From positions 115,637 to 179,636 of IMG/VR virus record IMGVR_UViG_3300014204_000115: a stretch of DNA of 64,000 nucleotides, one strand, 5' to 3'. The translations under genes and the position numbers were made by a program. Positions 5,108 to 37,023 of this stretch are shown one piece after another (position 1 is the stretch's first letter; each line of letters opens with the position of its first letter). Under the pieces are notes generated by a model that was not told the DNA's origin, did not search any database, and was given only the letters and a program-made list of their open reading frames with translations. The DNA is from a virus (lineage: Duplodnaviria > Heunggongvirae > Uroviricota > Caudoviricetes).

Positions 5108-5632
5108 TTGAATCTAGATAATAAAAAGTTATTTTGCGGAATTGATGCATCTTTTAGTGGTACTGGTCTTGTTGTTATTGACAACGAATTTAAAATTGTT
5201 GATCAAAAACTAATTTCAACAAAAAAGAAAGATGATGATTATGATATTGAAAAAAGAATGATTTTTATTGTTGAAGAATTATCCTTATTTCTTACAAAAT
5301 ATTTTATTGATTTAAAATTTACCATGATTGAAGGAATAAGTTATGGTTCTACAGGTGATGGTGCTGCTCAATTGGCCGCGCTAAATTATTTTATTCGAAT
5401 TTTCCTTTTTGAAAACAAAGTTAATTATTCTGAAGTAACACCTAGCAGATTAAAAAAATTTGTATCAGGAAAAGGTCAGTCTAAAAAAGAAATGATGTTA
5501 AAAGAAGTATATAAAAGATGGGGCGAAGATTTTGACGATAATAATTTGTGCGATAGCTACTGTTTAGCAAGATATGCACATGATACTTTTTTTAAGAAAA
5601 ATAATCTTTTAAAATTGAAAGAGGTAAAATAA
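5108..5632 (+). CDS. RuvC-like Holliday junction resolvase
   Basis: TTG start. N-terminal GIDASFSGTGLVV, MIEGISYGS and C-terminal DNNLCDSYCLARYA match the RuvC/RNase H-fold catalytic layout of phage resolvases. Confidence 0.6.
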   Translation: MNLDNKKLFCGIDASFSGTGLVVIDNEFKIVDQKLISTKKKDDDYDIEKRMIFIVEELSLFLTKYFIDLKFTMIEGISYGSTGDGAAQLAALNYFIRIFLFENKVNYSEVTPSRLKKFVSGKGQSKKEMMLKEVYKRWGEDFDDNNLCDSYCLARYAHDTFFKKNNLLKLKEVK

Positions 5633-5784
5633 TGTTTAAAAATTTAACAATAATGAGTATTATAAATCTTTTATTTATCTATGATTGTTTTTTCTGGCCT
5701 ATAGATTTTAGTAGAGATGCAAAATATTGGGGTGATATTTATGATGAGAGATGTAGTGGTAATACATATAGGGATAAAAAATAA
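5632..5784 (+). CDS. small hydrophobic protein (50 aa), tentative
   Basis: ATG overlaps the upstream stop (TAATG), GAGG RBS. The hydrophobic N-terminus is not in the ORF track (<60 aa). Confidence 0.3.
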   Translation: MFKNLTIMSIINLLFIYDCFFWPIDFSRDAKYWGDIYDERCSGNTYRDKK

Positions 5785-6902
5785 TGAGTTTTAAAAATGA
5801 AAAAATAAAAGAAAAATGGAAAAATAAAGAAGATCCCAATAACAAAAAAAGAATATTAATTTTACAAGAAATATCTAGAAATAAAAAAGATACAAAATGG
5901 AAAAAAAGAAATTGTTTATCTAGAAGCGAAAAAACAGAAAACTTTAATAAATTAGTTTTAAATATTAATAAAAATTTTGAAAAGAAAAAAGATTTAGTTT
6001 GTAGAATTTGTAATAAAACATGCAAAGATTTTAAATCATTTTCATCACATATATCACAAACTCATAACATTTTAATTAAAGATTATTATGATTTTTTTAT
6101 AAAAAAAGATGAAGAAGGATTTTGTAAAATTTGTAGTAAATTAACTAGATTTATAAGTTATAAAAATGGATATTCAATTTTTTGTTCATCAATGAAGTGT
6201 GTAAATAATGATCCAAATAGAATATTATCTATAAAAAATTCTGATAAATGGAAAAATATAGATTATAGAAAAAAATTATCAAATAATACAAAAAACCAAT
6301 GGATAAATAATTATGAATATATAAAATTAATGACAACACCAAAAAGTATATTTAGAATCAAACAAGCAAAATCTCAAATTATAAGATATCAAAATAAAGA
6401 AGAAAGAATAAAAACATCAGAATCAATTAAAAGAGCATATATTAATAATCCAAATTTAAGAATTAATGCATCTAATCATACTAAAAAAATGTGGATAGAT
6501 CCTAATAGCAAATTTAATTCAGAAGAATATTTAAAAAAAATTATGTCATATTTTAGAAAGGGATTAAAAACAACACCAGAAAAGAAAATAGAGATGATTT
6601 TAAGTGAATTAATAGGACATAATTTTAAATTTACAGGAAACGGATCTTTTTGGATTAATAGAAAAAATCCAGATTTTACAGATGTTAAAAATAAAAAAGT
6701 AATAGAAGTTTTTGGTGATTATTATCATTCTGAATATTTTAGAAAAAAATTTAATGATTTTTCAACGAATGAAGAACATCAATTAAATAGAGAAAATCAT
6801 TTTAAACAATCTGGTTTTAATTGTTTAATTTTATGGGAGATAGAAATCAAAAATTTAGATTTATGTAAAGATAAAATTATACAATTTATTGGAGAAAAAT
6901 AA
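5784..6902 (+). CDS. putative freestanding homing endonuclease: Lys-rich, C2H2/CxxC zinc fingers, NUMOD3-like repeats, C-terminal Vsr/DUF559-like PD-(D/E)XK nuclease motif
   Basis: Zinc fingers CRICNKTC..H..H and CKICSKL. Repeated K-x-S-E/N-x-x-K units (RIKTSESIKRAY, ASNHTKKMW, KKLSNNTKNQW). C-terminus VIEVFGDYYHSEYF...GFNCLILWEIEI. It sits between core replication genes, and its codon usage is richer in A/K than neighbours. Confidence 0.45.
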   Translation: MSFKNEKIKEKWKNKEDPNNKKRILILQEISRNKKDTKWKKRNCLSRSEKTENFNKLVLNINKNFEKKKDLVCRICNKTCKDFKSFSSHISQTHNILIKDYYDFFIKKDEEGFCKICSKLTRFISYKNGYSIFCSSMKCVNNDPNRILSIKNSDKWKNIDYRKKLSNNTKNQWINNYEYIKLMTTPKSIFRIKQAKSQIIRYQNKEERIKTSESIKRAYINNPNLRINASNHTKKMWIDPNSKFNSEEYLKKIMSYFRKGLKTTPEKKIEMILSELIGHNFKFTGNGSFWINRKNPDFTDVKNKKVIEVFGDYYHSEYFRKKFNDFSTNEEHQLNRENHFKQSGFNCLILWEIEIKNLDLCKDKIIQFIGEK

Positions 6903-6903
6903 A

Positions 6904-7311
6904 ATGGAAAAATTTGTTATTCACCTACATGAAGCCATTAGAAAGGGTACACATTTTGATCTGCGCTTTAGTATTCCTGATTCTAGAAATTGGGCTAGTT
7001 TTGTATTCAATAAATTTCCGCCTTTAGAACCTGGAGAAAGAGTTTACATACCAAGGGCACCGGATCATAATTTGGAAAATGCATTATTTACTGGAGAAAT
7101 AAAATCTGGTTATGGTGCAGGAAGTTTAAAAAAAGTTGATGGTGGTTCTTGTGATGTAATTAAATACACTAATGCTCATATTGTTGTAAATTTTAAAGGA
7201 AAGAAATTACAGGGAATTTATCATTTTATAAATGCAGGAGTGTTTGGTCGAAGAAGACAATATAATAAAAAAGTATATGCATTTTTTAAAGGAAAAATTG
7301 AATCTAATTAA
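6904..7311 (+). CDS. LigD-type 3'-phosphoesterase (PE) domain protein, standalone
   Basis: FVIHLHEAIRKGTHFDLRF...WASF...FTGEIKSGYGAGSL matches the LigD PE-domain signature (Q-x-H-x-A-x-x-x-HYDLRLE ... EG-x-IP-x-YGAG). The ORF track starts at a TTG at 6889; ATG at 6904 after GGAGAAAAATAAA is preferred. Confidence 0.6.
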   Translation: MEKFVIHLHEAIRKGTHFDLRFSIPDSRNWASFVFNKFPPLEPGERVYIPRAPDHNLENALFTGEIKSGYGAGSLKKVDGGSCDVIKYTNAHIVVNFKGKKLQGIYHFINAGVFGRRRQYNKKVYAFFKGKIESN

Positions 7312-7469: not shown

Positions 7470-10400
7470 ATGGGTAAAAAAGTTATTTTGTCAAAAAATG
7501 CAGAAGAAGTAGCAAAATCTAGATACTTTAATGAGGGCGAGGATTGGGAAACATGTACTAGAAGAGTAGCAGATGCAATTGCTCATGTAGAAAAAGATAA
7601 AGAAATATATGCACAAAAATTTCAAGAAATGATCTATAACATGGACTTTATTCCTGCGGGTAGAATTTTAAGAAATGCTTCTAGAGCAAAAGGTAGTTTA
7701 ATGAATTGCTATGTAATACCAATAGGAGATTCAATAGAAGAAATTGGAAAATTTATTGCTGATAGTCTGACTTTATGGAGTGAAGGAGGTGGAGTTGGGT
7801 GTCTTTTTTCACCTCTAAGACCAAAGAATGAAAAAATTCTTGGCAAAGGTGGCAAGTCATCAGGAATGGTTAGTTTTATTAAAGCTGCAGATGCTGTTTC
7901 TAAAACTATTGAAAGTGGTGGTCAGAGAAGAGCTGCAGCTTTAGCTTGTTGTGACGTATCTCACCCAGAAGTTCTAGATTTTATCAACGCAAAATTAGTT
8001 GATGGAGATATTTCTCATTTTAACATTTCAGTTTTAGTTGATGAAGAATTTATTAAAGCAGTTGAATCTGATAATGATTGGACTTTTAAGTTTAAACAGA
8101 AAGAATATGGTAAAGTAAAAGCTAGAGAAATTTGGAATTTAATTGTTGATAATATGATTAAAAAAGCTGAGCCAGGATTTTTAAATAAAACCAATCTTTA
8201 TAAAAATAATTCATATTATTATGATCCAGTAGTTTCAACAAACCCATGCATAACTGGGGATACTTTAGTTTATGTAGCAGATGGAAGGGGCCATGTTTCT
8301 ATTAAAACATTATCAGAAGAAGATAAGGATATTCCAGTATTTTCTTATAATGAAAGTAAAAAACAAGTTGAAGTAAAAATAATGAGAAGACCTAGAATAA
8401 CTGGGTATAATCAAAAAATATTAAAGATTACTTTAGATGATGGTTCTGTTTTTAGATGCACAGAAAATCATAAGATTTTTATGAAAGATGGATCACTAAA
8501 AAGAGCAGATGGGATTTTACCAGGAGATCGATTAACACATTTAATTTCTTATAATGCTCCACTAGAAGAAATTTTTCCTGATTCAAATTCTAAATCTCAA
8601 GATTATAGATGGATATTGAATAAAGGATATTCAATTTCAGAACATAGATTAATTGCATCATATAAAATTGGAAGAAATTTAAAAACAGGAGAAATTGTTC
8701 ATCATTGTGACAGAAATGGATTAAATAATAGTTTTGAAAATCTTGAAGTAATGATAAAAAAAGATCATGATAAATTACACGGAGATCTAATAAGAGGAGA
8801 TAATAATCCAATGAGGAGATTTCCAGAAAAGAATTATTTTAAATATCATAAATTTTTAGGAATTGAAAACGGAAATAGTATGGGTTTTACAAAAGAAGAG
8901 ATAATGGATAAAGCAATTGAATTTTGTAAATCTCTTACTAGAAAATCACATGTTGGTGAATGGAAGGAATATTGTAGAAAAAATAACTTTCCATATGATA
9001 GTTTTTATATTTTTGGCGATTACGGTCATATTGGCGGATTTCTAGAAGAAGCAGCAAGAAGAGCTAATGTAGTAAATTTTGATAGTTATCATCATGGTGA
9101 ATATAATAAGTATTTGAAATTAAAAGAAGAAACAGATTTAAATATATTCTTTGATAATGGAATTTTTGTGAAGAAGATTTGTGAAGGATGTAAGGAAGAG
9201 TTTATTGTTCCTTGGTCTTATAGAGAAGCCTCTTATCATACAAGAACTTGTTTTAACATCTCAGAACATAAAAAACAAAAAACAAGAGAAGATCGAAAAA
9301 CAAAATATAACGAAAATAAAGAAAATATCTTTAGAGTTTTTAAAGAGCTAGAAACTAAATTTGGAAGAAAACCCTTACTTTATGAGTTAACTGAAGAATG
9401 TAGAAAACAAAAAGTTAGTTTAGTTTTACATGGTTATAAAAAACCATCAGAAGATTATTTTGGATATTATAATGATGTAGTAAATTGGGTTGAAAATAGA
9501 CAAATTAATTATCAAGTAGTTTCTATCGAAGAAGATGGTTTTGAAGATGTGTATAATGGAACTGTTGACGATAATCATAATTTTTATTCAATGGTTAATA
9601 ATAATCAAACAGAATCTGGAAAATCTAAATATAATTATATACTTAGCAAACAATGCGGTGAAGCAATTTTATCAAATTATGAATCATGTGATTTAGGTTC
9701 TTTAGTATTACCAAATTTTATTACAGGAAATGTAAATACGAATTGGAAAAAATTAGGAGAAACTATTAAATTAGCTGTAAGATTTTTAGATAATGTAATT
9801 GATGTAAATAAATATTCTCTAAAAGAAATTGATATTAAAACTCATAATTCAAGAAGAATTGGATTAGGTATTATGGGTTTAGCTGAATATTTATTTTCTA
9901 AAGAATTAAGGTATGGTTCTAAAGAAGCTATAAATGAAATTGAAAAACTAATGAGATTTATTAGAGATAATATTTACCAGACACTAGTTGAATTATCAGT
10001 AGAAAAAGGATCATTCCCAAAATTTGATTCAGTTCAATATGGAAATGCATCATTTGTAAGGAAACTCCCTGCTCAACTTAGAATGGATATTAAAAAATAT
10101 GGTGTAAGATGTGTATCAGGAATGGCTATGGCTCCTAATGGTACAATTTCCCTATTACCTGAAGTAACAAGTGGAATTGAACCCTTAATGTTTAAGGCTT
10201 ATAAAAGAAAAGATAGGGTTGGAGAAAGAATTTATATTCATCCAAAGTATAAAGAGATACTTTTAAGAGGAGATTCTGTCCCGGATTGGTATGTAGATAT
10301 GTCGGATTTAACTCCAAAAGATCATTTTGAAACTCAAGCTATTATTCAAAGATATACTGATGGAGCTGTAAGTAAAACTATTAATCTTCCAGAAGGAACG

Positions 10401-10718
10401 ACATCTGAGCAATTAAATCATTATCTATTAGAATATATTAGAGATTTAAAAGGTGTTACTGTTTATGTTGATAAGTCAAGAGATGGTCAGGTTTATAATA
10501 AATTAAGCGAAGATGAAGTTTTTGATATTATTTCACAACAAACAATAGGAATTAGCAATTCAATGGATGGTGATGATATTGAGTGTAAATGTCAGAAGAA
10601 AGATGATGATGCAGAAGCAGACCAACCAGTAATTTGTGAAATTCCAACTAAATCAGTAAAAGAGGAGAAGAAAAATGTTGTACCTAAAAGAAAATCAAAA
10701 GTGTCCTCACGCAAATAA
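7470..10718 (+). CDS. nrdJ: class II (adenosylcobalamin-dependent) ribonucleotide reductase NrdJ, interrupted by an intein
   Basis: The N-terminus has the NrdJ-like signatures; ATG at 7470 follows GGAGAG (the ORF track begins upstream at a TTG). Extein reads STNP|CGEAIL...CDLGSL...RRIGLGIMGLAEY, giving the NPCGE active-site motif after intein removal. Confidence 0.85.
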   Translation: MGKKVILSKNAEEVAKSRYFNEGEDWETCTRRVADAIAHVEKDKEIYAQKFQEMIYNMDFIPAGRILRNASRAKGSLMNCYVIPIGDSIEEIGKFIADSLTLWSEGGGVGCLFSPLRPKNEKILGKGGKSSGMVSFIKAADAVSKTIESGGQRRAAALACCDVSHPEVLDFINAKLVDGDISHFNISVLVDEEFIKAVESDNDWTFKFKQKEYGKVKAREIWNLIVDNMIKKAEPGFLNKTNLYKNNSYYYDPVVSTNPCITGDTLVYVADGRGHVSIKTLSEEDKDIPVFSYNESKKQVEVKIMRRPRITGYNQKILKITLDDGSVFRCTENHKIFMKDGSLKRADGILPGDRLTHLISYNAPLEEIFPDSNSKSQDYRWILNKGYSISEHRLIASYKIGRNLKTGEIVHHCDRNGLNNSFENLEVMIKKDHDKLHGDLIRGDNNPMRRFPEKNYFKYHKFLGIENGNSMGFTKEEIMDKAIEFCKSLTRKSHVGEWKEYCRKNNFPYDSFYIFGDYGHIGGFLEEAARRANVVNFDSYHHGEYNKYLKLKEETDLNIFFDNGIFVKKICEGCKEEFIVPWSYREASYHTRTCFNISEHKKQKTREDRKTKYNENKENIFRVFKELETKFGRKPLLYELTEECRKQKVSLVLHGYKKPSEDYFGYYNDVVNWVENRQINYQVVSIEEDGFEDVYNGTVDDNHNFYSMVNNNQTESGKSKYNYILSKQCGEAILSNYESCDLGSLVLPNFITGNVNTNWKKLGETIKLAVRFLDNVIDVNKYSLKEIDIKTHNSRRIGLGIMGLAEYLFSKELRYGSKEAINEIEKLMRFIRDNIYQTLVELSVEKGSFPKFDSVQYGNASFVRKLPAQLRMDIKKYGVRCVSGMAMAPNGTISLLPEVTSGIEPLMFKAYKRKDRVGERIYIHPKYKEILLRGDSVPDWYVDMSDLTPKDHFETQAIIQRYTDGAVSKTINLPEGTTSEQLNHYLLEYIRDLKGVTVYVDKSRDGQVYNKLSEDEVFDIISQQTIGISNSMDGDDIECKCQKKDDDAEADQPVICEIPTKSVKEEKKNVVPKRKSKVSSRK
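8247..9653 (+). other. intein (about 469 aa) with HNH endonuclease domain inside nrdJ
   Basis: Starts CITGDTLVY (block A) immediately after NP and contains the HNH motif HHCDRNGLNNSFENLEVMIKKDHDKLH. It has a block-G-like VDDNHNFYSMVNNN. The C-extein starts CGE at 9654. The exact C-terminal splice junction is uncertain (the last intein residue may be Gln). Confidence 0.6.
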
Positions 10719-11379: not shown

Positions 11380-12717
11380 ATGACAGATGTTATAATTGAT
11401 AAAAGTGAAGAAATTGTAGAAGACGAGATTTATCAAGAAGAGAATATTTTTTCTGAAGTCAAACCTGAAGATTTAGAACAGAGTTTAAATAATATCAAAA
11501 TTGAATTAACAGAAGAAGATAAAAAGAAATATAATGCAGAAGTACCAGAACCTCCAACAGAAGTAAAAAAGAGAGGCAGAAAACCAAATACGCTTAAAAA
11601 AGATATTCCTACTCCAACAGAAGTAAATTATGAAATGACAGATGAAGAAATTGAATCTGGAATGGATCAGAAGACTAAAGATTTATATATGGAGTTTAAT
11701 AGTTTTCTTGAAGATAAAACAGAAATTACTTCTGATACCGGTATTAAAGATACTATTCCAACAGGAATAGATCTTTTAGATACAATCATGGGAGGGGGAT
11801 TTGCAATAGGCACTATGGGTGTTGCAACTGGAAATCCTGGTTGTGGAAAAAGTATGTTAGCAATTCAGACTATGGGTGCTGCACAGAGAAAATATAATGG
11901 TAATATTATTGCTGCTATGTTAGATTCAGAAGAAGCAACTACTACTATTAGAATGTCAAATCTTGGAGTAAAAAACCCTAAGATTAAACCTTATAATGAT
12001 ATTACAGTTGAAAAGGTTTTTAAATTTTTAGAAGGCATGTGTCTATACAAAGATATGAAAAAAATTATGGATACCCCATCAATAGTAGTTTGGGATTCTG
12101 TTGCAAATACATTAAGTCAGAGAGAAAGAGAAGCAGAAGATATTAATTCAGTAATTGGATATAAGGGAAGATTATTATCTTTATTAATTCCAAAATATGT
12201 ATCTAAATTAGCTATATACAATATTTGCTTAATTGCAATTAATCAGTTAAGAGATGTAATTTCTATTGGCAACTTCGCCCCAGCAAAAGAGTTAAAATTT
12301 ATGAGTCAGGGAAAAACTATGCCCGGTGGTAATAGTTTTAAATTTAATGCATTTCATCTATTAGAAATGAAAGCTAGGGAAACTGCTACTAGAGATAAGT
12401 TTGGGTTTGATGGATATTTTGCAGAAGTTGTTTGTGTAAAAAATAAATTATTTGCTCCTAATATTAAAATTAGTATAGCTGGAAATTTCGTTACTGGGTT
12501 TAATAACTTCTATACAAATTATAGATTCTTGACTGAAAATAAAAGAATGATAACTGGGGCTTGGAATTGGCTTGAAAATCTACCAACAGTTAAAACCCGC
12601 ACAAAAGACGCAGAAGAATTATATAAGACAAATACTTTATTTAAAGAAGCATTTGATAAATCTGTATCAGAAACATTACAAACAGAGATAATTGAAAAGT
12701 ACAATCCTTCTTTATAA
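11380..12717 (+). CDS. RecA-fold ATPase, UvsX/RecA-like recombinase candidate
   Basis: GIDLLDTIMGGGFAIGTMGVATGNPGCGKSMLAIQ parallels RecA G..LD.ALG.GG.P.GRIVEI.GPESSGKTTLAL. Acidic N-terminal extension. A DnaB-type helicase core cannot be fully excluded. Confidence 0.5.
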   Translation: MTDVIIDKSEEIVEDEIYQEENIFSEVKPEDLEQSLNNIKIELTEEDKKKYNAEVPEPPTEVKKRGRKPNTLKKDIPTPTEVNYEMTDEEIESGMDQKTKDLYMEFNSFLEDKTEITSDTGIKDTIPTGIDLLDTIMGGGFAIGTMGVATGNPGCGKSMLAIQTMGAAQRKYNGNIIAAMLDSEEATTTIRMSNLGVKNPKIKPYNDITVEKVFKFLEGMCLYKDMKKIMDTPSIVVWDSVANTLSQREREAEDINSVIGYKGRLLSLLIPKYVSKLAIYNICLIAINQLRDVISIGNFAPAKELKFMSQGKTMPGGNSFKFNAFHLLEMKARETATRDKFGFDGYFAEVVCVKNKLFAPNIKISIAGNFVTGFNNFYTNYRFLTENKRMITGAWNWLENLPTVKTRTKDAEELYKTNTLFKEAFDKSVSETLQTEIIEKYNPSL

Positions 12718-12724
12718 TTTAAAA

Positions 12725-13849
12725 ATGAAAATTAAATTATGTGATTATGGTTGTGGAAAAGAAGCAAGATTTCTTTTAAAGTTTAAAAATTCAGAAAAAT
12801 GGTGCTGTTCAGAAAAATATTCAGCATGTAAATCAAATATTAAAACATGGAATAAAGGTTTGACAAAAGAAACAGATGAACGAGTTAAAAAATATTCAAT
12901 TAATAAAATTGGATTATCTTCATGGAACAAGGGTTTGACAAAAGAAACAGATGAACGAGTTAAAAAAATTAGTTTATCAAATATTGGAAAGAAAATTTCA
13001 TCTAATCATAGATTAAAAATTAGTAAATCTTTAAAGGGAAAAAGTAAAACAGAAGATCATATAAAAAAATTATCTGAATCATTAAAAGGAAAAATTGGAT
13101 GGAATAATGGTTTAACAAAAGAAACTAGTAATTCTTTAATGATAGTTAGTAAAAAACTAAAAGGAAGAATAATAAAACAAGAAACTAAAGAAAAATTAAG
13201 AAAAATAAATCTTGGTAAAAAGTTATCAGAAGAAACTATAATAAAAATTTCTAAAAAAAATAAAGGTAGAAAAAGAACACCTGAACAAATTAAAAATCAT
13301 AGAAATTCTATTAAAGGCAACAAAAATCATAAAATGAATCATTATATAGAAACTTATCCAGATTTTATAAAATTAGAATTATTAGAGGAAGATTCTGAAA
13401 CAAAAGATTTAATAGTAATATGTAGTATTTGTAATTTAAAATTTACTCAAAATAATAGAGAAAAAATTTCTTATAGAGCACAAATGATTATATTAAAAAA
13501 AATGAATCAAGGAATGTTTTATTGCTCAAAAGAATGCAAAGAAAAATTTATTAATAAAAATAAAAATGATTATGAAATATATTCTAGAAAAGTTTGGAAG
13601 AATACTTATCAATCAGTAAAAGAACAAGGTTCTAATATCAAAAATATTGAATTAAGAGGCAGAAAATATAAATATCAGTTAGATCATAAGTATTCTATAA
13701 TAGAGGGTTTTAAAAATAATATAGATCCAAAAATTATTGGTCATTGGAAAAATTTAGAAATAATTTCAGATATTAAAAATACAAGAAAATTAGGAAAATG
13801 TTCTATAACAATACAAGAATTAATACAAGAAATAAATAATATTATATAA
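12725..13849 (+). CDS. freestanding HNH homing endonuclease with tandem NUMOD3 DNA-binding repeats
   Basis: N-terminal CDYGCGKEARF..CCSEKYSAC zinc knuckle. There are at least 6 repeats of W/L-N-K-G-L-T-K-E-T / K-K-L-S-E-E-T-I-I-K-I-S-K-K-N-K-G (NUMOD3 consensus). C-terminal QLDHKYSIIEGF...HWKNLEII is an HNH core. The ATG at 12725 is preferred over the TTG at 12692 in the ORF track. Confidence 0.6.
   Translation: MKIKLCDYGCGKEARFLLKFKNSEKWCCSEKYSACKSNIKTWNKGLTKETDERVKKYSINKIGLSSWNKGLTKETDERVKKISLSNIGKKISSNHRLKISKSLKGKSKTEDHIKKLSESLKGKIGWNNGLTKETSNSLMIVSKKLKGRIIKQETKEKLRKINLGKKLSEETIIKISKKNKGRKRTPEQIKNHRNSIKGNKNHKMNHYIETYPDFIKLELLEEDSETKDLIVICSICNLKFTQNNREKISYRAQMIILKKMNQGMFYCSKECKEKFINKNKNDYEIYSRKVWKNTYQSVKEQGSNIKNIELRGRKYKYQLDHKYSIIEGFKNNIDPKIIGHWKNLEIISDIKNTRKLGKCSITIQELIQEINNII
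12846..12968 (+). repeat. near-perfect direct repeat (about 47 nt unit, period 75 nt) inside the HNH/NUMOD3 gene
   Basis: catggaa(t/c)aa(a/g)ggtttgacaaaagaaacagatgaacgagttaaaaaa occurs at 12846-12892 and 12921-12967. It encodes the duplicated WNKGLTKETDERVKK unit. Confidence 0.8.
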
Positions 13850-23166: not shown

Positions 23167-23399
23167 AAAAATATTTTTTATTTTTAATAATTATTCTTTT
23201 ATTTTGTTTAATAAGTTGTGATAATCATTATAGAAGATCCCTTTCATTCAATCTACCAAAAGAAGCAAAAATAATAAAAGAAGATCTATCTGTACCTGCA
23301 ATTTATTTTAAAATTGGAAAAAGATATTATATAAAAATTTTTAGTGGAAATGGATACTCAATTTTTGAAATAGATAAAGAGGTTATTAATGGACAATAA
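23163..23399 (+). CDS. small lipoprotein
   Basis: Signal peptide MKKYFLFLIIILLFCLISC with lipobox L-I-S-C. Confidence 0.5.
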   Translation: MKKYFLFLIIILLFCLISCDNHYRRSLSFNLPKEAKIIKEDLSVPAIYFKIGKRYYIKIFSGNGYSIFEIDKEVINGQ

Positions 23400-23829
23400 T
23401 ATAAAACAAGTAATTGTTATTAGAAAAGATCTTCATATGAGACAAGGAAAGTCATGTGCAAGTGCAGCTCATGCAAGTATGAAAGTTCTTCTTGATGTAT
23501 TAAAAGAAATACATTCTGTACCAAGAGGTGTCATTTTTGGTATGGAAATAACTCCAATAAATAATTTTCAAGAAAAAAATACAAGACAATTAGATTGTTT
23601 AGAAAAATGGATTAAAGGAACATTTACTAAAATTGTTGTTTATGTAAAAAGCGAAGAAGAACTTCTTGAAGTATTTAATAGAGCTAAAGATGAAGGGATT
23701 TTTTGCAGCCTGATTGAAGATGTTGGAAAAACTGAATTTAATGGTGTTCCAACCAAAACTTGTTGCGCAATAGGACCAGATGAATCAGAAATAATTGATA
23801 AAATAACTGGTAAATTACCTCTATTATAA
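23389..23829 (+). CDS. peptidyl-tRNA hydrolase, PTH2 family
   Basis: KQVIVIRKDLHMRQGKSCASAAHAS and C-terminal CCAIGPDESEIIDKITGKLPLL closely match the archaeal/eukaryotic Pth2 motifs (V.VR.DL.MGKGK.AAQ..HA; AIGP....IDKITG.LKLL). Confidence 0.8.
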   Translation: MDNNIKQVIVIRKDLHMRQGKSCASAAHASMKVLLDVLKEIHSVPRGVIFGMEITPINNFQEKNTRQLDCLEKWIKGTFTKIVVYVKSEEELLEVFNRAKDEGIFCSLIEDVGKTEFNGVPTKTCCAIGPDESEIIDKITGKLPLL

Positions 23830-24670: not shown

Positions 24671-27600
24671 ATGTCCCTAAAATTTCTAGATTTAAATAAT
24701 TTTACAAGAAATTTAAAACCAGTAACAAGTACACAGACTCATACAAGAACAGATGAGTTTCATCCTCAAGGATTATTTTCCGAAATGATTTTTGGAGTAG
24801 AAGGTAGTTTAGATAGAAAGAAAACATTTTCATATATTGATTTAAATACATTTGTAATTCACCCTACTGCATATAGAATTCTTATCAGATTGGATAGAAA
24901 AATAGAAAAGATGTTTTCTACTGAAAAATCATTTAGATTGACAGAAAATGGTACATTAATAGAAGATGATAACGGAGTAACAGGAATTTTTGAATTTATT
25001 AAACTATTTCCAAAACTAATATTAAGAGGTGAATCTGAAGATAGAGATAAATTTATTAAAGTATTAAAAGATTCATATCAAGATCAAATATTATTTATAA
25101 ATAAAATTCCAATTATGCCTCCAGAACAAAGACCAATTTTTAAAGATAGCAGCGGAAGATACACACAAGATAAATTTAATGATTTTTACTTAACTATTTT
25201 AAGAAGATCAATACAACTTAAAACATTTGGGGCTAAAGGTACAATGTATGATCTATTAAATTGGGGATTACAAAGATCAGTAAATGATTTAGATGAATAC
25301 ACTAGAACAAAAATTGGTAAAAAATTTGGTTTAATTAGATCTCAGCTTCTAGGAAAAAGAACTGATTTCTCTGGAAGAGCTGTTATTACATCAGGTCCAG
25401 ATATTCCTGCAGATAAAATTGGAATACCTTTTAGATTAGCTATAACTTTATTTGAACCGTTTATAATTTATACACTTTTATATTCTGGAAAAATAAATAA
25501 AGATACTTTAGAAAAAGAAATAAAGAATTTTACAAAAACAGATTTATCCACAAATAGTATTGCAATTGTTTTAAAAAGTTTAAAATCTGGAGATGTTGTA
25601 CCTAAAAATTTATATGATATTTTCTTTAAGGCTGCAGTTTTGGCGTCTGAAAATAGAGTTGTTTTAGCAAAAAGAGATCCTGTTTTACATGCTGAATCAG
25701 TTCGAGCATTTTATCCTATCATAGTTCCTGGTAATACTATACAATTATCAGCTCTAGTTACAGGAGGATTTAACGCTGACTTTGATGGGGATACAATGGC
25801 AGTATTTCATCCTTTAACTATTGAATCACAAGATGAAGCAAAAAAAAGAATGATGATGGCTAGATCCTCTTCTTCATTTACAAGTATTACTTTTGAATTA
25901 AGTAAAGAAATGAGTGTTGGATTATATTTAATTACAAAAGATATTAAGGAATTTAAACCTCCTATTAGTGTTTCTAAAGAAGATTTAGAAAAAGCAATAG
26001 ATCCTTATACTCCAGTTATTTATAAAAAACAAACAACAACAATGGGAAAAGCAATTTTTAATAATTGTTTTCCTTCAGATTTTAGATTTATAAATGATTT
26101 GGTAACTAAAAAAATTGCTAATAAATTAATTTTTGAAGTTATTGATAAATATGGAGATGAAATTGGAAGACAAGTTGCATCTAATTTAAAAAATGTTGGT
26201 TTTAGATTCGCTAGTTTATTGGCACCTTCTTTAAATTTAAACGAAATTACAATTCCTCCTGAGATTTATGAATTAAAGAAAAATATGGATAAAGCTACAA
26301 CAGAAGAAGCAATTGAAATAATGGATAAAATGCGAAAAATAATGATTGAACATTTAAAAGATACAGGTTTATATAATTTAGTTGAATCAGGAAGTACTAA
26401 AGGATGGGATCAACCAATTCAAATTTTAGTTGCAAAAGGAATCATGGTAGATCCGACTGGAAAAATTCTTCCTCCTATTAAAGGTTCATTATCTGATGGT
26501 TTAACCACAACTGAATATTTTAATGCTGCTGGAGGAAGTAGAGCTGGAATCATTGATAGAGTTATCAATACTGCAGATACAGGATATACAGCTAGAAAAT
26601 TAGCTTATCTTTTAAACTCAGTAGAATTAGATTGGGTGTTAAAAGATTGTGGTACACAATTAACCTTAGATATAAAATTAGATCCAGATATTATTAGTAG
26701 ATTAAAAGGAAGATATATAGTAAAAAGAGGAAAATTAGAACTATTTGAACATTCTGGTTCAAAGTCTGGAGATTTAATTCATCTGAGAAGTCCAATTTTT
26801 TGTAAATCTTTAAAAATTTGTCATACTTGTTATGGAAAACTTTTAGAAATTCATAAAAGTCCTTATGTTGGAATTATTGCAGCATCAAATATTGGAGAAA
26901 GAAATACACAGCTTATTATGAGATCTTTCCATTCAACTGCAATTAAGATTATAACAAGAGATATATTAAAAGATATTTTTGATAATGATCCATTAGTTAA
27001 ATCCGATCAATTAAAAATAAAATTAAAACAGATGGAAAATAATTTGTATTGCACACAGGATTGTTCAATGACTATAGATTTAGATAGTTATGAATTAGGT
27101 GATGATATTACTATAAATGAAGAAGAAAATATAGTTGAAGCAAATGGTTTAATTTCTAGAATTGAATTTTCAGATTTATCATTTGATATAGTTCTTGATT
27201 ATCCAGTAATTATTAAATATGATAAAATAATTAAATCTAAAGAATTTATTAAAGTATCATTTAGAAAAGACGATGAAATTATTGAAGCTCCATTACAAAG
27301 ACAAGATTTAAAAGAAATTGTTTTATATGTCGAAAGATTAATTTCAGGTAAAGAAAAATTTAAAAGCATAGATCATTTATTTTTAAAATTTTACAAAATT
27401 TATAGCGACATTTCAAGTATGGATTTAGTTCATATGGAAGTATTAATTAGTCAGATTTTAAGAGATAAAAATAATCCAGTTTTCCCATCAAGAGTTGGAA
27501 AAGATCCAATGCATCCTGTATTAAGAAATATTAAAAAGAATGTTTTTAATAACGGAGGTTTGCTTCAAGGATTAGCTTTTGAAAATACATCAGCTGCTAT

Positions 27601-27700
27601 TAATGCAGGTTTAATAGCAACTACTGAATTAGAACCATCTATTTTAGAAAGATTATTAACAGGAACTTTAGTTGAGAGAAAAGATAAGGATAAGGATTAA
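24671..27700 (+). CDS. rpoC: DNA-directed RNA polymerase beta'-like subunit (1009 aa)
   Basis: Catalytic motif GGFNADFDGDTMAV. RAVITSGPDIPADKIGIPFRLAITLFEPF matches the beta' rudder/lid region. CHTCYGKL...GIIAASNIGERNTQLIMRSFH matches the beta' trigger-loop region. No N-terminal zinc-ribbon cysteines. Confidence 0.85.
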   Translation: MSLKFLDLNNFTRNLKPVTSTQTHTRTDEFHPQGLFSEMIFGVEGSLDRKKTFSYIDLNTFVIHPTAYRILIRLDRKIEKMFSTEKSFRLTENGTLIEDDNGVTGIFEFIKLFPKLILRGESEDRDKFIKVLKDSYQDQILFINKIPIMPPEQRPIFKDSSGRYTQDKFNDFYLTILRRSIQLKTFGAKGTMYDLLNWGLQRSVNDLDEYTRTKIGKKFGLIRSQLLGKRTDFSGRAVITSGPDIPADKIGIPFRLAITLFEPFIIYTLLYSGKINKDTLEKEIKNFTKTDLSTNSIAIVLKSLKSGDVVPKNLYDIFFKAAVLASENRVVLAKRDPVLHAESVRAFYPIIVPGNTIQLSALVTGGFNADFDGDTMAVFHPLTIESQDEAKKRMMMARSSSSFTSITFELSKEMSVGLYLITKDIKEFKPPISVSKEDLEKAIDPYTPVIYKKQTTTMGKAIFNNCFPSDFRFINDLVTKKIANKLIFEVIDKYGDEIGRQVASNLKNVGFRFASLLAPSLNLNEITIPPEIYELKKNMDKATTEEAIEIMDKMRKIMIEHLKDTGLYNLVESGSTKGWDQPIQILVAKGIMVDPTGKILPPIKGSLSDGLTTTEYFNAAGGSRAGIIDRVINTADTGYTARKLAYLLNSVELDWVLKDCGTQLTLDIKLDPDIISRLKGRYIVKRGKLELFEHSGSKSGDLIHLRSPIFCKSLKICHTCYGKLLEIHKSPYVGIIAASNIGERNTQLIMRSFHSTAIKIITRDILKDIFDNDPLVKSDQLKIKLKQMENNLYCTQDCSMTIDLDSYELGDDITINEEENIVEANGLISRIEFSDLSFDIVLDYPVIIKYDKIIKSKEFIKVSFRKDDEIIEAPLQRQDLKEIVLYVERLISGKEKFKSIDHLFLKFYKIYSDISSMDLVHMEVLISQILRDKNNPVFPSRVGKDPMHPVLRNIKKNVFNNGGLLQGLAFENTSAAINAGLIATTELEPSILERLLTGTLVERKDKDKD

Positions 27701-27702
27701 TT

Positions 27703-30700
27703 ATGATACAATTTAAATCACTAAGACAATATACTCATGTTGTTAATGGTATCAGATTTCCAAATAAACCCGGTCAAAATTTTGTTGTTACTTATTTTTC
27801 AGAAAATTCTAGTTTACTTGAAGATTATTCATTTTTAAATTTAAAATTAATAGATCTAAAAATTAATATAGTTCCATTTACAACAATTCCTAGAACAAGA
27901 TTAACACCTACTCTATTAAAATCATTTAAAAAACTAGGTTTAAATTCTTATCAATTAACTAATCAAGTACCAAGTGGAAGAAATGTAATATATGATTTAT
28001 CTCAATTTTTAAATGCAATTGATTATACATATAATCCATCAAATTATAGACAAAGATTAAATATGTTTATAAAAAATATTACTAATAGATCTTTTTCCGA
28101 ATTTAATAATTTTGAGAAAGTACTATTATATTCTATTAATTTAACAAAAGATAAGTTAAATAATTTTATTGACAGAAAATTTTTTCCAATAGTACAACAA
28201 TTAAAGGATGATTCATTTAGTTTTGATCATTTAATTTTATGTTTAATCACGCCATCAGGACCAAGATATAGATTATTAGTTAAAAATAGATCCTTTAAGT
28301 TTGAAAGAATAGTAACAATATTAAAAACAATTAAATTAGGTAATACTACAGAAGAAGTTAATGACATAGATACAGAAGAAGAAAATAATGCAGAAAAACT
28401 TGCAGATGAAGTAGTAAATAATATTCAAAATAATATTCTACCTAATAATAAAGATAAAGTAAAAGATGCAATTAAAAATTATCTTTCTAAAGATAATATT
28501 ACAAAAGAAAAAGTTATATCTAAAGAAGTATCTCCAAAAAGTATGAAAAAAATTGGAGTAGCATCTATTTTATATAAAGTAACTGGAGATTTAGATAAAT
28601 CTAAAAAAATTACAAATAATATTTCTGATAAGAATTTTAATAATGCTCTAAAAACTATAGATAAAAGATATTCTGATCAAATGTTACAAACTCAAAAACC
28701 AATTAATACATCAACTGATAATTTTGTTAAATCTTATGATACACCAAAAGCTGTAATTAAATCTCCATATCATTTATTTCAAAAAAGGTTGATAGACTTT
28801 GATATAAATCTCCAGAAAGATTTAGCTAATTCATTTAAAGTTCTTGAGACTAAAGAACTTCCTTTAAAAGTTGGTGAAATACAAATTGTAAATAGAAAAC
28901 AAAAAAATGGAGAAATTGAAAAATCTGATACTAATATAATTAAAACAGTATTGACAGATAAGGATGGTAATAATCATAACATTCAAATTGAAATTCCTAG
29001 AATTGATCCAAAGACTGGAACATTTAGAGTTAATGGTCAGAAAAAATGTTTAATCAATCAGATTGTATTATGTCCAATAACTTTTCCTAAAAAATTTGAA
29101 TCAAGATTTGAAAGTTCATATTCTATTTTTAGAATTAGAAGTAAAAGAACAAGAAATACAAAATATTTAGAAATTTTTATTGCTAACTCTTGGTTACCAT
29201 TATCTATATTATTATTTTATAGTTTTGGATTTGAAGAAACTCTTTCACAATATGGTATAAAATATAGAATAAGTTCAGATAAACCAAATAAAACTGACAC
29301 CTTTTATTCTAAAATTGATGGATCTAATTTTATTTATTTTGATGGTGTAAATAATGAATTAAAGGCAGAACTAATTAATTCATTTATAAATACAAAAGTT
29401 GACACATTAAAAATTAAAAAACCATTTGCTACTCAAGAATATTTCAATGATATAATTATTAGATTAACAGGAAGAGTAAATTCAACATTTTTAATTCTAT
29501 CAAATTTAGAAAATATTGTTGATCCTGTAGCAAAACAAGTTTTAATTAATATGCATCAACCATCTGTTTTAAAAGATATTATTTATTATATGTCTTTTAA
29601 AGTAATAACTGGATTTGTTCAAGATAGAAATGATATTTTAAACCAAAGAATTAGAGAATCAGAAGTATTAGTTCATTTAATACAAAAACAAATTTTAGCA
29701 GCTTATACGATTTATAAACAACAAATTTTAGCTGGTAATAAAAATGCAAAATTTGAAATTAATCAATCAAAATTATTAAGCGAATTTATTAGATCAGAAA
29801 TTGTTGCAAATATGGAGTATGCAAACCCAATAGAAGAAATGGCAGTTATGACAAGAATTTCACCTGTTGGAAAAAGTATCGGTGGTATTCCTGATAAAAG
29901 AGCAATTCAAAATGAAGCAAGAAATATACACCCATCTTATTTTGGAAATATTGATCCATTAGATACACCTGAAGGAGAAATGATTGGTATTTCACAACAA
30001 TTAGCTATCGGAGCTTCTATTAGTTCAGCAAGAGGTTTATTCTCAAAGAAACCATTTTTGGATAGTGAGAAATCTGGAATTTTATCAACATCATCCAATA
30101 TGATTCCATTTATAGAAAATAATGATGGTGCAAGAATTATTATGGCAACAAATCAAGCTAAACAGACGCTCCCATTAAAAAATCCAGAACCACCAGTTGT
30201 TAGATCTGGTTATGAATCATTATTAACAAATATATTATCTAATAACTTTATTAAAAAATCTCCATGCAATGGGAAAGTTTTAAAAATTACAGATGAGTCA
30301 ATTTTTATAATGTGTAGAGATAAAAGCATCAGAGAAATTTCTATAATTCCTGTTCATTTAAAATCAGGAATTGGAAAAGATACATTGAGTATTTTTAAAG
30401 TAATAGTAATACCAGGACAAATAGTTTTAGAAAATCAAATTATTGCAGAAGGAAGTTCTATTTCCAATGGAACAATTTCTCTAGGAAGAACTCTTTGTAC
30501 TGCAGTTATGCCATATAGAGGATATAATTTTGAAGATGGTATTGTAATCAACGAAAATTTAATAAATCAAGATAAACTAACATCTATTCATGGAATTATA
30601 GATGAAGTTTTAATTTCTGAAAATGATAGAGTTTTAGAAATTGCAAAAATTGGAACCTATCTTGAAAAAGGAAAACCTATTTTAAGAAAAACTATAGGTG

Positions 30701-36971: not shown

Positions 36972-36992
36972 ATAGAAATTTAAAGTAATGAA

Positions 36993-37023
36993 GGGATTGT
37001 ATATATTAATATATACAATCCCC
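36993..37023 (+). promoter_or_regulatory. perfect 31-bp palindrome (15-bp arms) between SPFH and MoxR-like genes; terminator or operator
   Basis: gggattgtatatatt-a-aatatatacaatccc. Confidence 0.4.

What the first reader, a model, noticed from the sequence alone, without database searches (positions are those of the whole stretch)
6904..7311. Standalone LigD-type 3'-phosphoesterase domain encoded directly upstream of the RNR
The 135-aa product matches the PE domain of bacterial NHEJ ligase LigD (H-x-H...HFDLR(F/L)..., ...G-x-I-x-x-GYGAG) but has no ligase or polymerase domain attached. PE domains trim 3'-phosphates or ribonucleotides at DNA ends. In a phage, a free-standing copy could heal ends produced by host tRNA/DNA-nicking defences or process primer ends. 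Its neighbours are the ruvC-like gene and a HEG.
Basis: partly seen in the sequence, partly recalled or inferred. Interest (0 to 1): 0.5.

Follow-up and report, generated by a model that had tools for sequence, protein, structure and literature searches.

The report
Phage-encoded minimal LigD-type phosphoesterase variant
A large uncultured phage carries a small free-standing enzyme of the LigD 3'-phosphoesterase family, but with one catalytic tyrosine and all the 3'-phosphatase-specific features missing, so it is probably a nucleic-acid end-trimming phosphodiesterase of the phage's replication/recombination module and not a bacterial-style end-joining or 3'-phosphatase enzyme.

Summary
Window 6904-7311 (+) encodes a 135-aa protein that matches Pfam LigD_N (PF13298) above its curated cut-off. 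A confident AlphaFold model (pLDDT 91.7) superposes only on solved LigD-PE structures (TM 0.8-0.9).

It is free-standing. No ligase, Ku or primase-polymerase domain was found in the about 74 kb examined.

- The metal triad (H9, H17, D19) and the phosphate ligands R21 and H55 are invariant.
- The sixth essential residue, Tyr88 of Pseudomonas PE, is Asn59 here and Glu/Asn/Gln across the phage clade.
- Every determinant published as specific for 3'-phosphomonoesterase activity is absent: the N-peptide, Gln40 and Glu82.
- The best inference is therefore a Mn-dependent 3'-phosphodiesterase, not a 3'-phosphatase.

The gene is a conserved core gene under purifying selection. It lies in a fixed block (FEN, gp13-like, RuvC, PE, RNR, UvsX, PD-(D/E)XK) in more than 20 large phage contigs (up to 312 kb). 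It has no counterpart in 50,697 deposited phage genomes, PHROGs or BFVD.

Verdict: a new, phage-specific variant of a known enzyme family. Its biochemical specificity and in vivo role are untested. Moderate interest.

The parts
6904..7311 (+). Gene for the 135-aa stand-alone PE-superfamily phosphoesterase (stop codon included)
   Evidence: ORF. PF13298 above its cut-off. PE fold. Called identically in the ENA contig. dN/dS 0.15-0.35 against relatives, pI 9.8.
6891..6894 (+). GGAG Shine-Dalgarno-like element 9 nt upstream of the ATG. The ATG lies 1 nt after the stop of the upstream ORF, so translational coupling is likely.
   Evidence: Read directly from the sequence. All homologues start at the equivalent Met.
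6928..6966 (+). Codons for the metal-binding triad H9 (6928-6930), H17 (6952-6954) and D19 (6958-6960), and for phosphate-binding R21 (6964-6966). These correspond to Pae His42, His48, Asp50 and Arg52.
   Evidence: HMMER alignments to 3N9B, 3P43, 3P4H and 5DMP. Conserved in essentially all complete sequences among about 190 aligned family members; P0103 and P0116 deviate at the Arg.
7066..7080 (+). Codons for H55 (7066-7068, = Pae His84, invariant) and N59 (7078-7080, at the position of the essential Pae Tyr88). The canonical DHP(L)xY motif is remodelled to DH-N-L-E-N.
   Evidence: The column is Y in canonical PEs, W in an intermediate group, and E 52% / N 18% / Q 9% in the phage clade.
7108..7122 (+). 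Codons for the G69-Y-G-A-G73 loop, shared with all PE enzymes
   Evidence: G69, Y70, G71 and G73 are invariant and A72 nearly invariant in alignment A1. Conserved in the canonical groups as well.
5108..5632 (+). Context: RuvC-like Holliday junction resolvase, the conserved upstream neighbour of PE in the phage lineage
   Evidence: PF02075 at 32.2 bits against a cut-off of 22.2. phrog_159 at 3e-26. Synteny.
5784..6902 (+). Context: 372-aa ORF inserted between RuvC and PE in this phage only. Putative mobile or homing-endonuclease-like gene, with no domain confirmed.
   Evidence: Absent from this position in L001, L003 and L005-L022. Seven homologues in total: one is the identical sequence P0189, and one of the other six carries NUMOD3. 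No Pfam, PHROG, NCBIfam or PDB assignment.
7470..10718 (+). Context: adenosylcobalamin-dependent class II ribonucleotide reductase (NrdJ) interrupted by an intein with HNH. This is the conserved downstream neighbour of PE.
   Evidence: TIGR02504 at 455 bits against a cut-off of 400, plus an intein N-terminal domain. Pfam families. Synteny.

Best explanation
The gene encodes a minimal, free-standing member of the LigD 3'-phosphoesterase (PE) superfamily. The fold is an eight-stranded beta-barrel whose outer face carries a His-His-Asp manganese site and Arg/His phosphate ligands. It is a core gene of the replication/recombination/nucleotide module of a deep lineage of large, very AT-rich uncultured phages. 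The most likely mechanism (inferred, not shown) is as follows. The enzyme is metal-dependent, probably using Mn2+. It attacks a phosphodiester at the 3' end of a nucleic-acid strand, resecting 3'-terminal ribonucleosides or similar 3' adducts. This keeps 3' ends usable for the phage's UvsX-driven recombination-dependent replication. The clade has lost the Tyr and every determinant specific for the phosphomonoesterase reaction (N-peptide, Gln40, Glu82). It keeps Lys66 and a basic residue at position 75/76, which influence the diesterase reaction. It is therefore predicted to be a diesterase with weak or no 3'-phosphatase activity. It does not work in a Ku/LigD end-joining pathway.
For: Shown: family and fold membership. 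The five core catalytic residues are conserved in essentially all complete sequences among about 190 aligned members, and are invariant or nearly so (at least 90%) in alignment A1 of the 39 close homologues. Purifying selection, dN/dS 0.15-0.35, and basic pI 9.8. Conserved block orf249, dNMP kinase, FEN, gp13-like, RuvC, PE, RNR, orf155, UvsX, KH, orf195, PD-(D/E)XK in L001, L003, L005-L009, L011-L022 and L030, on contigs of 31-312 kb with neighbour identities down to about 30-50%. The window also encodes topo II, a UvsW-like helicase and Mre11/Rad50; a clamp loader and a Dda/Pif1-like helicase lie in the 10 kb upstream of it. This is a T4-like recombination-dependent replication toolkit. From the literature: Tyr-to-Ala mutants of CkoPE and MbaPE keep about 20% diesterase activity but are blocked at the monoesterase step, and minimal PEs without the N-peptide are mainly diesterases (PMC3082917). 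Arg14, Asp15, Glu21, Glu82 and Gln40 are monoesterase-specific, while Lys66 and Arg76 influence the diesterase (PMC3300020). In the window protein these map to: no N-peptide, H7, P53, N59, K37 and R46.
Against: No biochemical data exist for any member of this clade. Tyr88 is described as essential for both activities in Pseudomonas PE, so the clade could be a poor enzyme or could use a different substrate. Position 59 is variable (E/N/Q/D/G), so no single compensating residue is evident. The atomic model could not be inspected for active-site geometry. Conserved gene order in a vertically inherited block is weak evidence for a functional partnership. The tight and repeated association with RNR, including fusions, fits a nucleotide-metabolism role equally well. 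Only about 74 kb of a genome of at least 180 kb could be inspected for partner enzymes.
Confidence: 0.55

Rival explanations
1. The enzyme acts in nucleotide metabolism or on small phosphodiester or phosphate-bearing nucleotides, not on DNA ends. Candidate substrates are 3'-phosphorylated or 2',3'-cyclic nucleotides, short RNA breakdown products, or nucleotide second messengers. In this reading it is functionally coupled to ribonucleotide reductase and dNTP supply.
For: PE is followed by an RNR within about 4 kb in nearly all loci, and is separated by only 2-400 nt in L001/L005, L017-L021 and L030. The association survives replacement of class II NrdJ by class III NrdG/NrdD in L014. The protein database holds in-frame PE-RNR fusions, P0060 and P0062. 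dNMP kinase, and ThyX in L001, are in the same block. The active-site groove is remodelled relative to DNA-end-healing PEs.
Against: The same block holds as many DNA-processing genes (FEN, RuvC, UvsX, PD-(D/E)XK). The PE-RNR gap is a hot spot for unrelated insertions (HEGs, M48 peptidase, a ferritin-like gene), so fusions may be accidental read-through of neighbours. The DNA encoding the fusions could not be inspected. All characterised PEs act on polynucleotide 3' ends, and the protein is strongly basic (pI 9.8). There is no PADLOC hit.
Confidence: 0.2
2. It is a classical 3'-end healing enzyme (3'-phosphatase plus 3'-ribonuclease). It would repair 3'-phosphate or 2',3'-cyclic phosphate ends made by host defence nucleases and hand them to a phage or host ligase. 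This would be a functional analogue of T4 Pnkp.
For: It belongs to a family whose characterised members all have this activity. The metal and phosphate core is intact. Large phages commonly carry end-healing enzymes of other folds (PMC7824862).
Against: All published monoesterase-specific determinants and the Tyr are missing. No DNA ligase, RNA ligase (no KxDG motif in any ORF of at least 150 aa except RNAP beta) or kinase was found in the window or 10 kb upstream. The gene is a fixed core gene of the replication block, not in a variable counter-defence island. The 'PNK3P' gene near UvsX in relatives is a GmhB-type sugar-phosphate phosphatase and is absent from the window.
Confidence: 0.15
3. 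It is a catalytically degenerate PE domain that serves as a nucleic-acid- or protein-binding module, for example as an adaptor for variable C-terminal domains.
For: An essential Tyr is lost. Many clade members in the 50%-clustered library carry heterogeneous C-terminal extensions: a TM segment plus M48 peptidase, a rubrerythrin-like domain, RNR and others. The second tandem copy in L014 has lost the GYGAG loop.
Against: His, His, Asp, Arg and His are invariant or nearly invariant (at least 90%) among the 39 close homologues, at 43-80% identity to the window protein, and are conserved in essentially all complete sequences of the wider family. Such conservation is not expected of a pseudoenzyme. 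The close homologues are almost all 131-145 aa stand-alone proteins.
Confidence: 0.07

Closest known systems
Candidatus Korarchaeum cryptofilum PE (CkoPE, PDB 3P4H/3TA5/3TA7): the 'minimised' stand-alone archaeal LigD-PE homologue
   Same: Same fold (Foldseek TM 0.80/0.91, rmsd 1.7 A). Similar size (117 against 135 aa). Starts directly at beta-strand 1 with no N-peptide. Same His-His-Asp metal triad and Arg/His phosphate ligands. Not fused to ligase or polymerase. CkoPE is mainly a 3'-phosphodiesterase with weak monoesterase activity, which is what is predicted here.
   Different: CkoPE keeps Tyr55 and the Glu two residues before the catalytic His (EDH...Y), whereas the phage protein has P53 and N59. 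Identity is only 28%. CkoPE is cellular and not clustered with repair genes; the phage gene sits in a conserved replication/recombination block.
Methanosarcina barkeri PE (MbaPE, PDB 3P43)
   Same: Best sequence and structure match: phmmer 2e-12, profile 1e-22, TM 0.82/0.89, 34% identity. Also stand-alone.
   Different: MbaPE has the N-peptide with Arg/Asp/Glu, plus Glu and Tyr, and is a vigorous 3'-phosphatase. The phage protein lacks all of these.
PE domain of bacterial NHEJ DNA ligase D (Pseudomonas aeruginosa LigD, PDB 3N9B/3N9D/2LJ6; TIGR02777)
   Same: Homologous domain with the same active-site core, His42/His48/Asp50/Arg52/His84.
   Different: The phage protein is not fused to LIG or POL domains, and no Ku was found. 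It scores 47 bits against the 144-bit equivalog cut-off of TIGR02777. Tyr88, Glu82, Gln40 and the N-peptide are absent. Identity is 23-25%.
Methanocella paludicola NHEJ phosphoesterase (PDB 5DMP)
   Same: A stand-alone PE that works on 3'-ribonucleotide tracts. Same fold (TM 0.78).
   Different: It operates with separately encoded Ku, ligase and polymerase in an archaeal NHEJ system (entry title; partner details from my own knowledge). No such partners were found here. It has the canonical EDH...Y motif.
Phage T4 polynucleotide kinase/3'-phosphatase (Pnkp) and other phage end-healing phosphoesterases (2H, cRec, HAD, calcineurin-like, HD)
   Same: Phage-encoded enzymes that process nucleic-acid 3' ends. 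They are a possible functional analogy (PMC7824862).
   Different: Their folds and chemistry are unrelated, and they normally co-occur with RNA ligases, whereas none was found here. The jumbo-phage survey does not list a LigD-PE type enzyme.

Membership tests
LigD 3'-phosphoesterase (PE) superfamily (Pfam PF13298 LigD_N) | Profile match above the curated gathering score | tested here: met
   46.2 bits against a cut-off of 31.1, E=5.7e-12, covering profile positions 2-106 of 107. All 39 close homologues also carry PF13298.
LigD 3'-phosphoesterase (PE) superfamily (Pfam PF13298 LigD_N) | Eight-stranded antiparallel beta-barrel with a short 3-10 helix after the catalytic His | tested here: met
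   AF2 pLDDT 91.7, with strands and helix 57-60 in the expected order. Foldseek top 7 hits are all PE structures, TM 0.69-0.91, with nothing else below E=0.4.
LigD 3'-phosphoesterase (PE) superfamily (Pfam PF13298 LigD_N) | Manganese-binding triad (Pae His42, His48, Asp50) | tested here: met
   H9, H17 and D19 align in every HMMER alignment and are conserved in all complete sequences aligned.
LigD 3'-phosphoesterase (PE) superfamily (Pfam PF13298 LigD_N) | Phosphate-binding Arg52 and His84 | tested here: met
   R21 and H55 are invariant in A1. Across the wider family they are conserved in nearly all sequences, with isolated exceptions: P0103 and P0116 at the Arg, P0131 and P0132 at the His.
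LigD 3'-phosphoesterase (PE) superfamily (Pfam PF13298 LigD_N) | Sixth essential residue, Tyr88, whose hydroxyl holds the phosphate-bound water | tested here: not met
   Asn59 in the window. E 52% / N 18% / Q 9% in the 74 clade sequences. Y in all four distinct solved PE proteins (five matched PDB sequences) and the canonical group; W in an intermediate group.
LigD 3'-phosphoesterase (PE) superfamily (Pfam PF13298 LigD_N) | Mn2+-dependent 3'-phosphodiesterase and/or 3'-phosphomonoesterase activity on polynucleotide ends | not testable with these tools
   Requires an enzyme assay.
Bacterial NHEJ ligase D PE domain proper (NCBIfam TIGR02777 equivalog; Ku/LigD system) | Score above the equivalog cut-off | tested here: not met
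   47.3 bits against a cut-off of 144.
Bacterial NHEJ ligase D PE domain proper (NCBIfam TIGR02777 equivalog; Ku/LigD system) | Covalent or genomic association with an ATP-dependent ligase and an AEP polymerase domain, and with Ku | tested here: not met
   The ORF is bounded by stops with at most 5 extra residues. No ligase, PrimaseS or Ku Pfam hit in about 45 window ORFs or in 10 kb upstream. No KxDG motif. None in the 20-kb loci L001 and L003. The rest of the genome (at least 180 kb in total) could not be inspected.
Bacterial NHEJ ligase D PE domain proper (NCBIfam TIGR02777 equivalog; Ku/LigD system) | Monoesterase-enhancing elements: N-peptide Arg14/Asp15/Glu21, Gln40, Glu82 | tested here: not met
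   There is no N-peptide (the protein starts 3 residues before beta-1). H7 stands at Gln40 and P53 at Glu82. In the clade these columns are V/M/H and T/N/H/P. Roles of these residues are from PMC3300020 and PMC3082917.
Minimal stand-alone archaeal PEs (CkoPE type) | About 117-128 aa barrel-only protein lacking the N- and C-peptides, with the full set of six active-site residues | tested here: inconclusive
   Size and architecture match (135 aa, barrel only), but only five of the six residues are present. Best treated as a sister subfamily.

The most novel reading that the evidence does not exclude
The phage clade may be a functionally distinct PE subfamily with a remodelled active site: DH-S/N-x-x-(E/N/Q) instead of EDHPxxY, a near-invariant basic residue at position 51, and clade-specific C83, H92 and H107. 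Its true substrate would not be a classical DNA 3'-phosphate end. One possibility is a dedicated 3'-ribonucleotide-resecting enzyme that copes with ribonucleotide-terminated primers when dNTPs are scarce, which would explain its fixed place beside, and occasional fusion to, ribonucleotide reductase. Another is a phosphodiesterase for a nucleotide-derived small molecule. Either case would give the first in vivo context for stand-alone PE enzymes, whose biological role has been open since 2010-2011.
Probability: 0.25. Interest if true: 0.65.

Novelty: new variant of a known kind. Interest (0 to 1): 0.42.

Why it matters
Stand-alone LigD-PE homologues are widespread in archaea, bacteria and eukaryotes. 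Their cellular role is unknown, and the archaeal genes are not clustered with any repair genes (PMC3082917).

Here a PE subfamily is a fixed core gene of a phage replication/recombination/nucleotide block. It lies between RuvC and RNR and near FEN, UvsX and Mre11/Rad50. That gives a concrete and genetically tractable context.

The clade is also a natural experiment on the PE active site. The Tyr and all monoesterase-specific elements are removed while the metal and phosphate core is kept. This predicts a separation of the two PE activities that a simple assay can test.

The family is absent from cultured-phage genome collections, PHROGs and BFVD. It therefore adds an end-processing enzyme type that the jumbo-phage survey consulted does not list.

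Tried and rejected
1. Search for a partner ligase, Ku or polymerase.
- Pfam and PHROGs scans of about 45 window ORFs found none.
- A KxDG motif scan found none apart from RNAP beta.
- The 10 kb upstream also has none.

2. Attempts to extend beyond the window failed.
- The 179,636-bp JGI source contig could not be retrieved.
- Look-ups returned only ENA contigs that end near the window edges.
- Exact-pattern scans gave nothing in IMG/VR and only 2-kb fragments in metagenomes.

3. A possible partner 3'-phosphatase was rejected. The 'PNK3P' gene near UvsX in relatives L001 and L003 looked promising. Its sequence (DRDGT...SNQSG...YCPHxxxxxCxCRKP...GD) is a GmhB-type sugar-phosphate HAD phosphatase fused to or adjacent to an ArgZ/deoxyhypusine-synthase-like domain. 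It has no homologue in the window.

4. Searches in cultured phages were negative: tblastn of the window PE, tblastn of CkoPE, PHROGs, and BFVD by fold, which gave one marginal hit, A0A516LT18, with TMq 0.48.

5. No defence-system link was found in PADLOC.

6. Regulatory signals were uninformative. Promoter-like sites do not exceed shuffled expectation and there are no terminators. There were no Rfam hits and no tRNAs.

7. The heterogeneous C-terminal 'fusions' in the 50%-clustered library are not evidence for a partner domain.
- They include an M48 peptidase, a rubrerythrin-like domain and apparent NTase-like sequences.
- Several correspond to separate neighbouring genes in L014.
- The NTase resemblance I saw by eye in P0046 and P0074 was not confirmed by Pfam.

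8. The identity of the upstream 'HEG' could not be established: no nuclease domain was found.
Full report

Yes. Window 6904-7311 (+) is an uninterrupted ORF of 135 codons plus TAA.
- The ATG is preceded by GGAG at 6891-6894.
- It lies one base after the stop of the upstream ORF.
- The only in-frame alternative start (TTG at 6889) would add five residues, so nothing larger can be hidden at the N-terminus.
- No ORF of 40 aa or more overlaps it on the other strand.
- The ENA gene call on an independent assembly is identical.

**2. What is it?**

Sequence evidence places it in the LigD PE family.
- Pfam LigD_N (PF13298) matches over almost the whole model at 46.2 bits (cut-off 31.1, E=5.7e-12).
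- phmmer against PDB sequences finds only LigD-PE proteins with significance. These are Methanosarcina barkeri PE 3P43 (2e-12), Korarchaeum PE 3P4H, Pseudomonas LigD PE 3N9B/2LJ6 and Methanocella PE 5DMP.
- A profile of 39 homologues raises the best of these to 1e-22.

Structure prediction agrees.
- An AlphaFold2 model built on that alignment is confident (pLDDT 91.7, pTM 0.85).
- The seven best Foldseek PDB hits are all PE structures (TM 0.69-0.91, rmsd 1.7-4.6 A).
- The eighth hit has E=0.4.

Fold and family are therefore settled.

NCBIfam's equivalog model for the LigD PE domain (TIGR02777) scores only 47 bits against a cut-off of 144. The protein is thus a distant superfamily member, not an orthologue of the bacterial LigD domain.

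**3. Active site**

HMMER alignments to the solved structures are gap-free through the catalytic segments. They give the following mapping to Pseudomonas PE:

| Window residue | Pae PE residue |
|---|---|
| H9 | His42 |
| H17 | His48 |
| D19 | Asp50 |
| R21 | Arg52 |
| K37 | Lys66 |
| R46 | Lys75 (next to Arg76) |
| P53 | Glu82 |
| H55 | His84 |
| N59 | Tyr88 |
| H7 | Gln40 |

I aligned 188 database relatives plus four distinct solved PE sequences to the family HMM.
- His-His-Asp-Arg-His is conserved in essentially every complete sequence, with a handful of isolated exceptions.
- The Tyr88 column splits the family three ways.
  - It is Y in canonical enzymes, which also have Glu at position 82.
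  - It is W in an intermediate group (motif PDHW).
  - It is E 52% / N 18% / Q 9% (also D, G, A) in the 74 sequences closest to the window protein.
- The same clade replaces Gln40 with V/M/H and Glu82 with T/N/H/P.
- It has clade-specific near-invariant residues: P25, R/K51, A60-L61, C83, K87, H92 and H107.

The literature gives the roles of these residues.
- The six residues His42, His48, Asp50, Arg52, His84 and Tyr88 are needed for both PE activities.
- Arg14, Asp15 and Glu21 (the N-peptide), Glu82 and Gln40 act specifically in the 3'-phosphomonoesterase reaction.
- Lys66 and Arg76 influence the 3'-phosphodiesterase reaction (PMC3300020).
- Tyr-to-Ala mutants of both archaeal PEs keep about 20% diesterase activity but stall at the 3'-phosphate intermediate.
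- The natural N-peptide-less CkoPE is mainly a diesterase (PMC3082917).

The phage protein lacks the N-peptide, Gln40, Glu82 and Tyr88. It keeps the metal/phosphate core, Lys66 and a basic residue at 75/76. I infer, but have not shown, that it is a phosphodiesterase with little 3'-phosphatase activity.

**4. Is it a functional gene, and in what kind of genome?**

The gene looks functional.
- Thirty-nine homologues at 43-80% identity are nearly all 131-145 aa stand-alone proteins.
- They share 21 invariant columns.
- Pairwise dN/dS against three relatives is 0.15-0.35.
- The pI is 9.8.

The genome is that of a large phage.
- The window (25.4% GC, all genes on one strand) encodes dNMP kinase, a FEN-type 5'-3' exonuclease, a T4 gp13-like protein and RuvC.
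- It also encodes NrdJ with an intein, a UvsX/RecA recombinase, a PD-(D/E)XK nuclease, a baseplate gpV-like protein and unsplit RNA polymerase beta' and beta.
- Further genes are topoisomerase II, a UvsW-like helicase, Mre11 and Rad50.
- Ten kb upstream lie an SLT lysozyme, a Dda/Pif1-like helicase and a clamp loader.
- The closest deposited phages share only 25-28% identity in UvsX or RNAP beta'.
- The source contig is 179.6 kb.

The context is conserved across a deep lineage.
- Eighteen IMG/VR loci on contigs of 31-312 kb, two ENA contigs (268 and 82 kb) and a 211-kb contig binned as a Woesearchaeota MAG carry the same block.
- The block is orf249, dNMP kinase, FEN, gp13-like, RuvC, PE, RNR, small ORF, orf155, UvsX, KH, orf195, PD-(D/E)XK, orf344.
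- Neighbour identities go down to 30-50%.

PE is therefore a core gene of a deep lineage of large phages, embedded in the replication/recombination/nucleotide module.

**5. Partners**

- No ATP- or NAD-dependent ligase, RNA ligase, Ku, AEP primase-polymerase or polynucleotide kinase was found in the window ORFs scanned.
- None was found in the upstream 10 kb or in the 20-kb neighbourhoods L001 and L003.
- No + strand ORF of at least 150 aa has a KxDG nucleotidyl-transferase motif, except by chance in RNAP beta.
- The remainder of the genome could not be reached. The absence of a ligase therefore holds for about 74 kb only.
- A 'PNK3P' gene near UvsX in relatives proved to be a GmhB-type sugar-phosphate phosphatase and is absent here.

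**6. The RNR connection**

- PE is followed by an RNR within about 4 kb in nearly every locus. It is immediately adjacent (2-400 nt) in eight loci.
- In L014 the NrdJ gene is replaced by NrdG/NrdD, yet PE, here duplicated in tandem, is still just upstream.
- Two database proteins, P0060 and P0062, are in-frame PE-NrdJ fusions.

Against a functional reading, the PE-RNR gap is a hot spot for insertions.
- Insertions include HEG-like genes, a TM-plus-M48 peptidase fused to PE in L007/L008, a small EKEH-motif protein and a ferritin-like protein.
- Several 'fusion' proteins in the clustered library correspond to neighbouring genes elsewhere.

I therefore treat a functional link to ribonucleotide reduction as a live rival (about 0.2), not as established.

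**7. Mechanism proposed**

- Shown: PE fold; intact His-His-Asp metal site and Arg/His phosphate site; loss of the Tyr and of the monoesterase-specific elements; purifying selection; fixed position among recombination and replication genes.
- Inferred:
  - the enzyme is metal-dependent, probably Mn2+;
  - it binds a nucleic-acid 3' end on the basic face of the barrel;
  - it cleaves the terminal phosphodiester, resecting a 3'-ribonucleoside or 3'-adduct;
  - this serves 3'-end quality control for recombination-dependent replication.
- It is not an NHEJ component.

**8. Comparison with what is known, and novelty**

- Stand-alone PE proteins are already known in archaea, bacteria and eukaryotes. 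'A free-standing PE domain' is therefore not new in itself.
- What appears new is a phage-borne subfamily.
  - tblastn of this protein and of CkoPE against 50,697 deposited phage records gave no hit.
  - No PHROG matched.
  - BFVD gave no convincing fold match.
  - A jumbo-phage comparative survey lists 2H, cRec, HAD, calcineurin-like and HD end-healing enzymes, but not LigD-PE.
  - Full-text searches for PF13298/LigD_N found nothing on phages.
- Taken with the systematic active-site remodelling, this is best filed as a new variant of a known kind.

**9. Verdict**

- Observation: confirmed.
- Interpretation: partly supported. Domain identity, stand-alone status and phage context are right.
- Interest: moderate, 0.42. 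A specialist would find the Tyr-less, monoesterase-stripped phage clade and its fixed RuvC-PE-RNR context noteworthy and easy to test, but it is not a new kind of system.

Noticed in passing
window 7470-10718: The class II (adenosylcobalamin) RNR NrdJ is interrupted by an intein of about 445 aa with an HNH-type endonuclease, at roughly residues 260-705 (window about 8247-9585). Relatives L001 and L003 have intein-free NrdJ of 595-599 aa.
   Followed up: partly
window 24671-31815, and L033/L034 just past the window end: There are two large unsplit multisubunit RNA polymerase genes: beta'-like (1009 aa) and beta-like (1370 aa). A second beta'-like paralogue (24-26% identity) begins just downstream of the window. 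The closest cultured-phage relatives (Rhizobium RHph_Y65, Acinetobacter MD-2021a, Cobetia Carin-5) share only 25-28% identity.
   Followed up: partly
window 5784-6902: A 372-aa ORF is inserted between RuvC and PE in this phage only. It has seven homologues in 5.8 billion proteins, including its own identical entry, and one of the others carries a NUMOD3 motif. It has Zn-finger-like weak hits and a C-terminal '...IEVFGDYYH...ILWE' segment that looks Vsr/PD-(D/E)XK-like by eye. No database assignment was found.
   Followed up: partly
window 12692-13849: An HNH/NUMOD3 homing-endonuclease-like ORF overlaps the 3' end of UvsX. It occupies the slot where relatives L001 and L003 carry a GmhB-type HAD phosphatase plus an ArgZ/deoxyhypusine-synthase-like gene. 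That gene is mislabelled PNK3P by Pfam and may be involved in base or sugar modification.
   Followed up: partly
L014 10001-14090: Two PE paralogues lie in tandem, and the second has lost the GYGAG loop. They are followed by a small EKEH-motif protein, a ferritin/rubrerythrin-like protein and a class III RNR (NrdG + NrdD) in place of NrdJ.
   Followed up: partly
L007/L008 10001-11266; proteins P0043, P0060, P0062, P0057, P0065: Several natural single-ORF fusions of the phage-type PE exist. Partners are a transmembrane M48 metallopeptidase (L007/L008, P0043), NrdJ (P0060, P0062) and a rubrerythrin/EncFtn-like domain (P0057, P0065). A subset of the more distant members shares an acidic linker followed by a K-x-L-x-W motif after the PE domain.
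   Followed up: partly
L030 (BPGB01000002.1, 211 kb) and L029 (JAUWWH010000020.1): Contigs binned as Woesearchaeota and Bathyarchaeota MAGs carry the same phage gene block (FEN, gp13-like, RuvC, PE, RNR, UvsX and so on). They are probably mis-binned phage contigs. Alternatively they hint at the host, although the SLT lysozyme upstream of the window argues for a bacterial host.
   Followed up: no
window 57838-62100: A conserved module of an 847-aa unknown protein, a JAB-like protein (338 aa) and a ThiF/E1-like protein (229 aa), with a radical SAM enzyme at 54800-55834. In L010 this module lies next to PE on the opposite strand.
   Followed up: no
window 23389-23829; 32304-32879; 36105-39632: An archaeal/eukaryotic-type peptidyl-tRNA hydrolase (PTH2), a SUKH (SMI1/KNR4) immunity-type protein, an SPFH/Band 7 protein, and an ATPase plus DUF2201 VWA/metallopeptidase pair.
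   Followed up: no
L004/L026 (ENA contig k141_1043833), end of contig, corresponding to window 11380-12717: The ENA assembly of the same phage is identical to the window through the PE region but only 92% identical in UvsX, just before the contig ends. The rest of the window lies on a separate 52-kb ENA contig. This suggests strain heterogeneity or an assembly break at the HEG-rich region.
   Followed up: no
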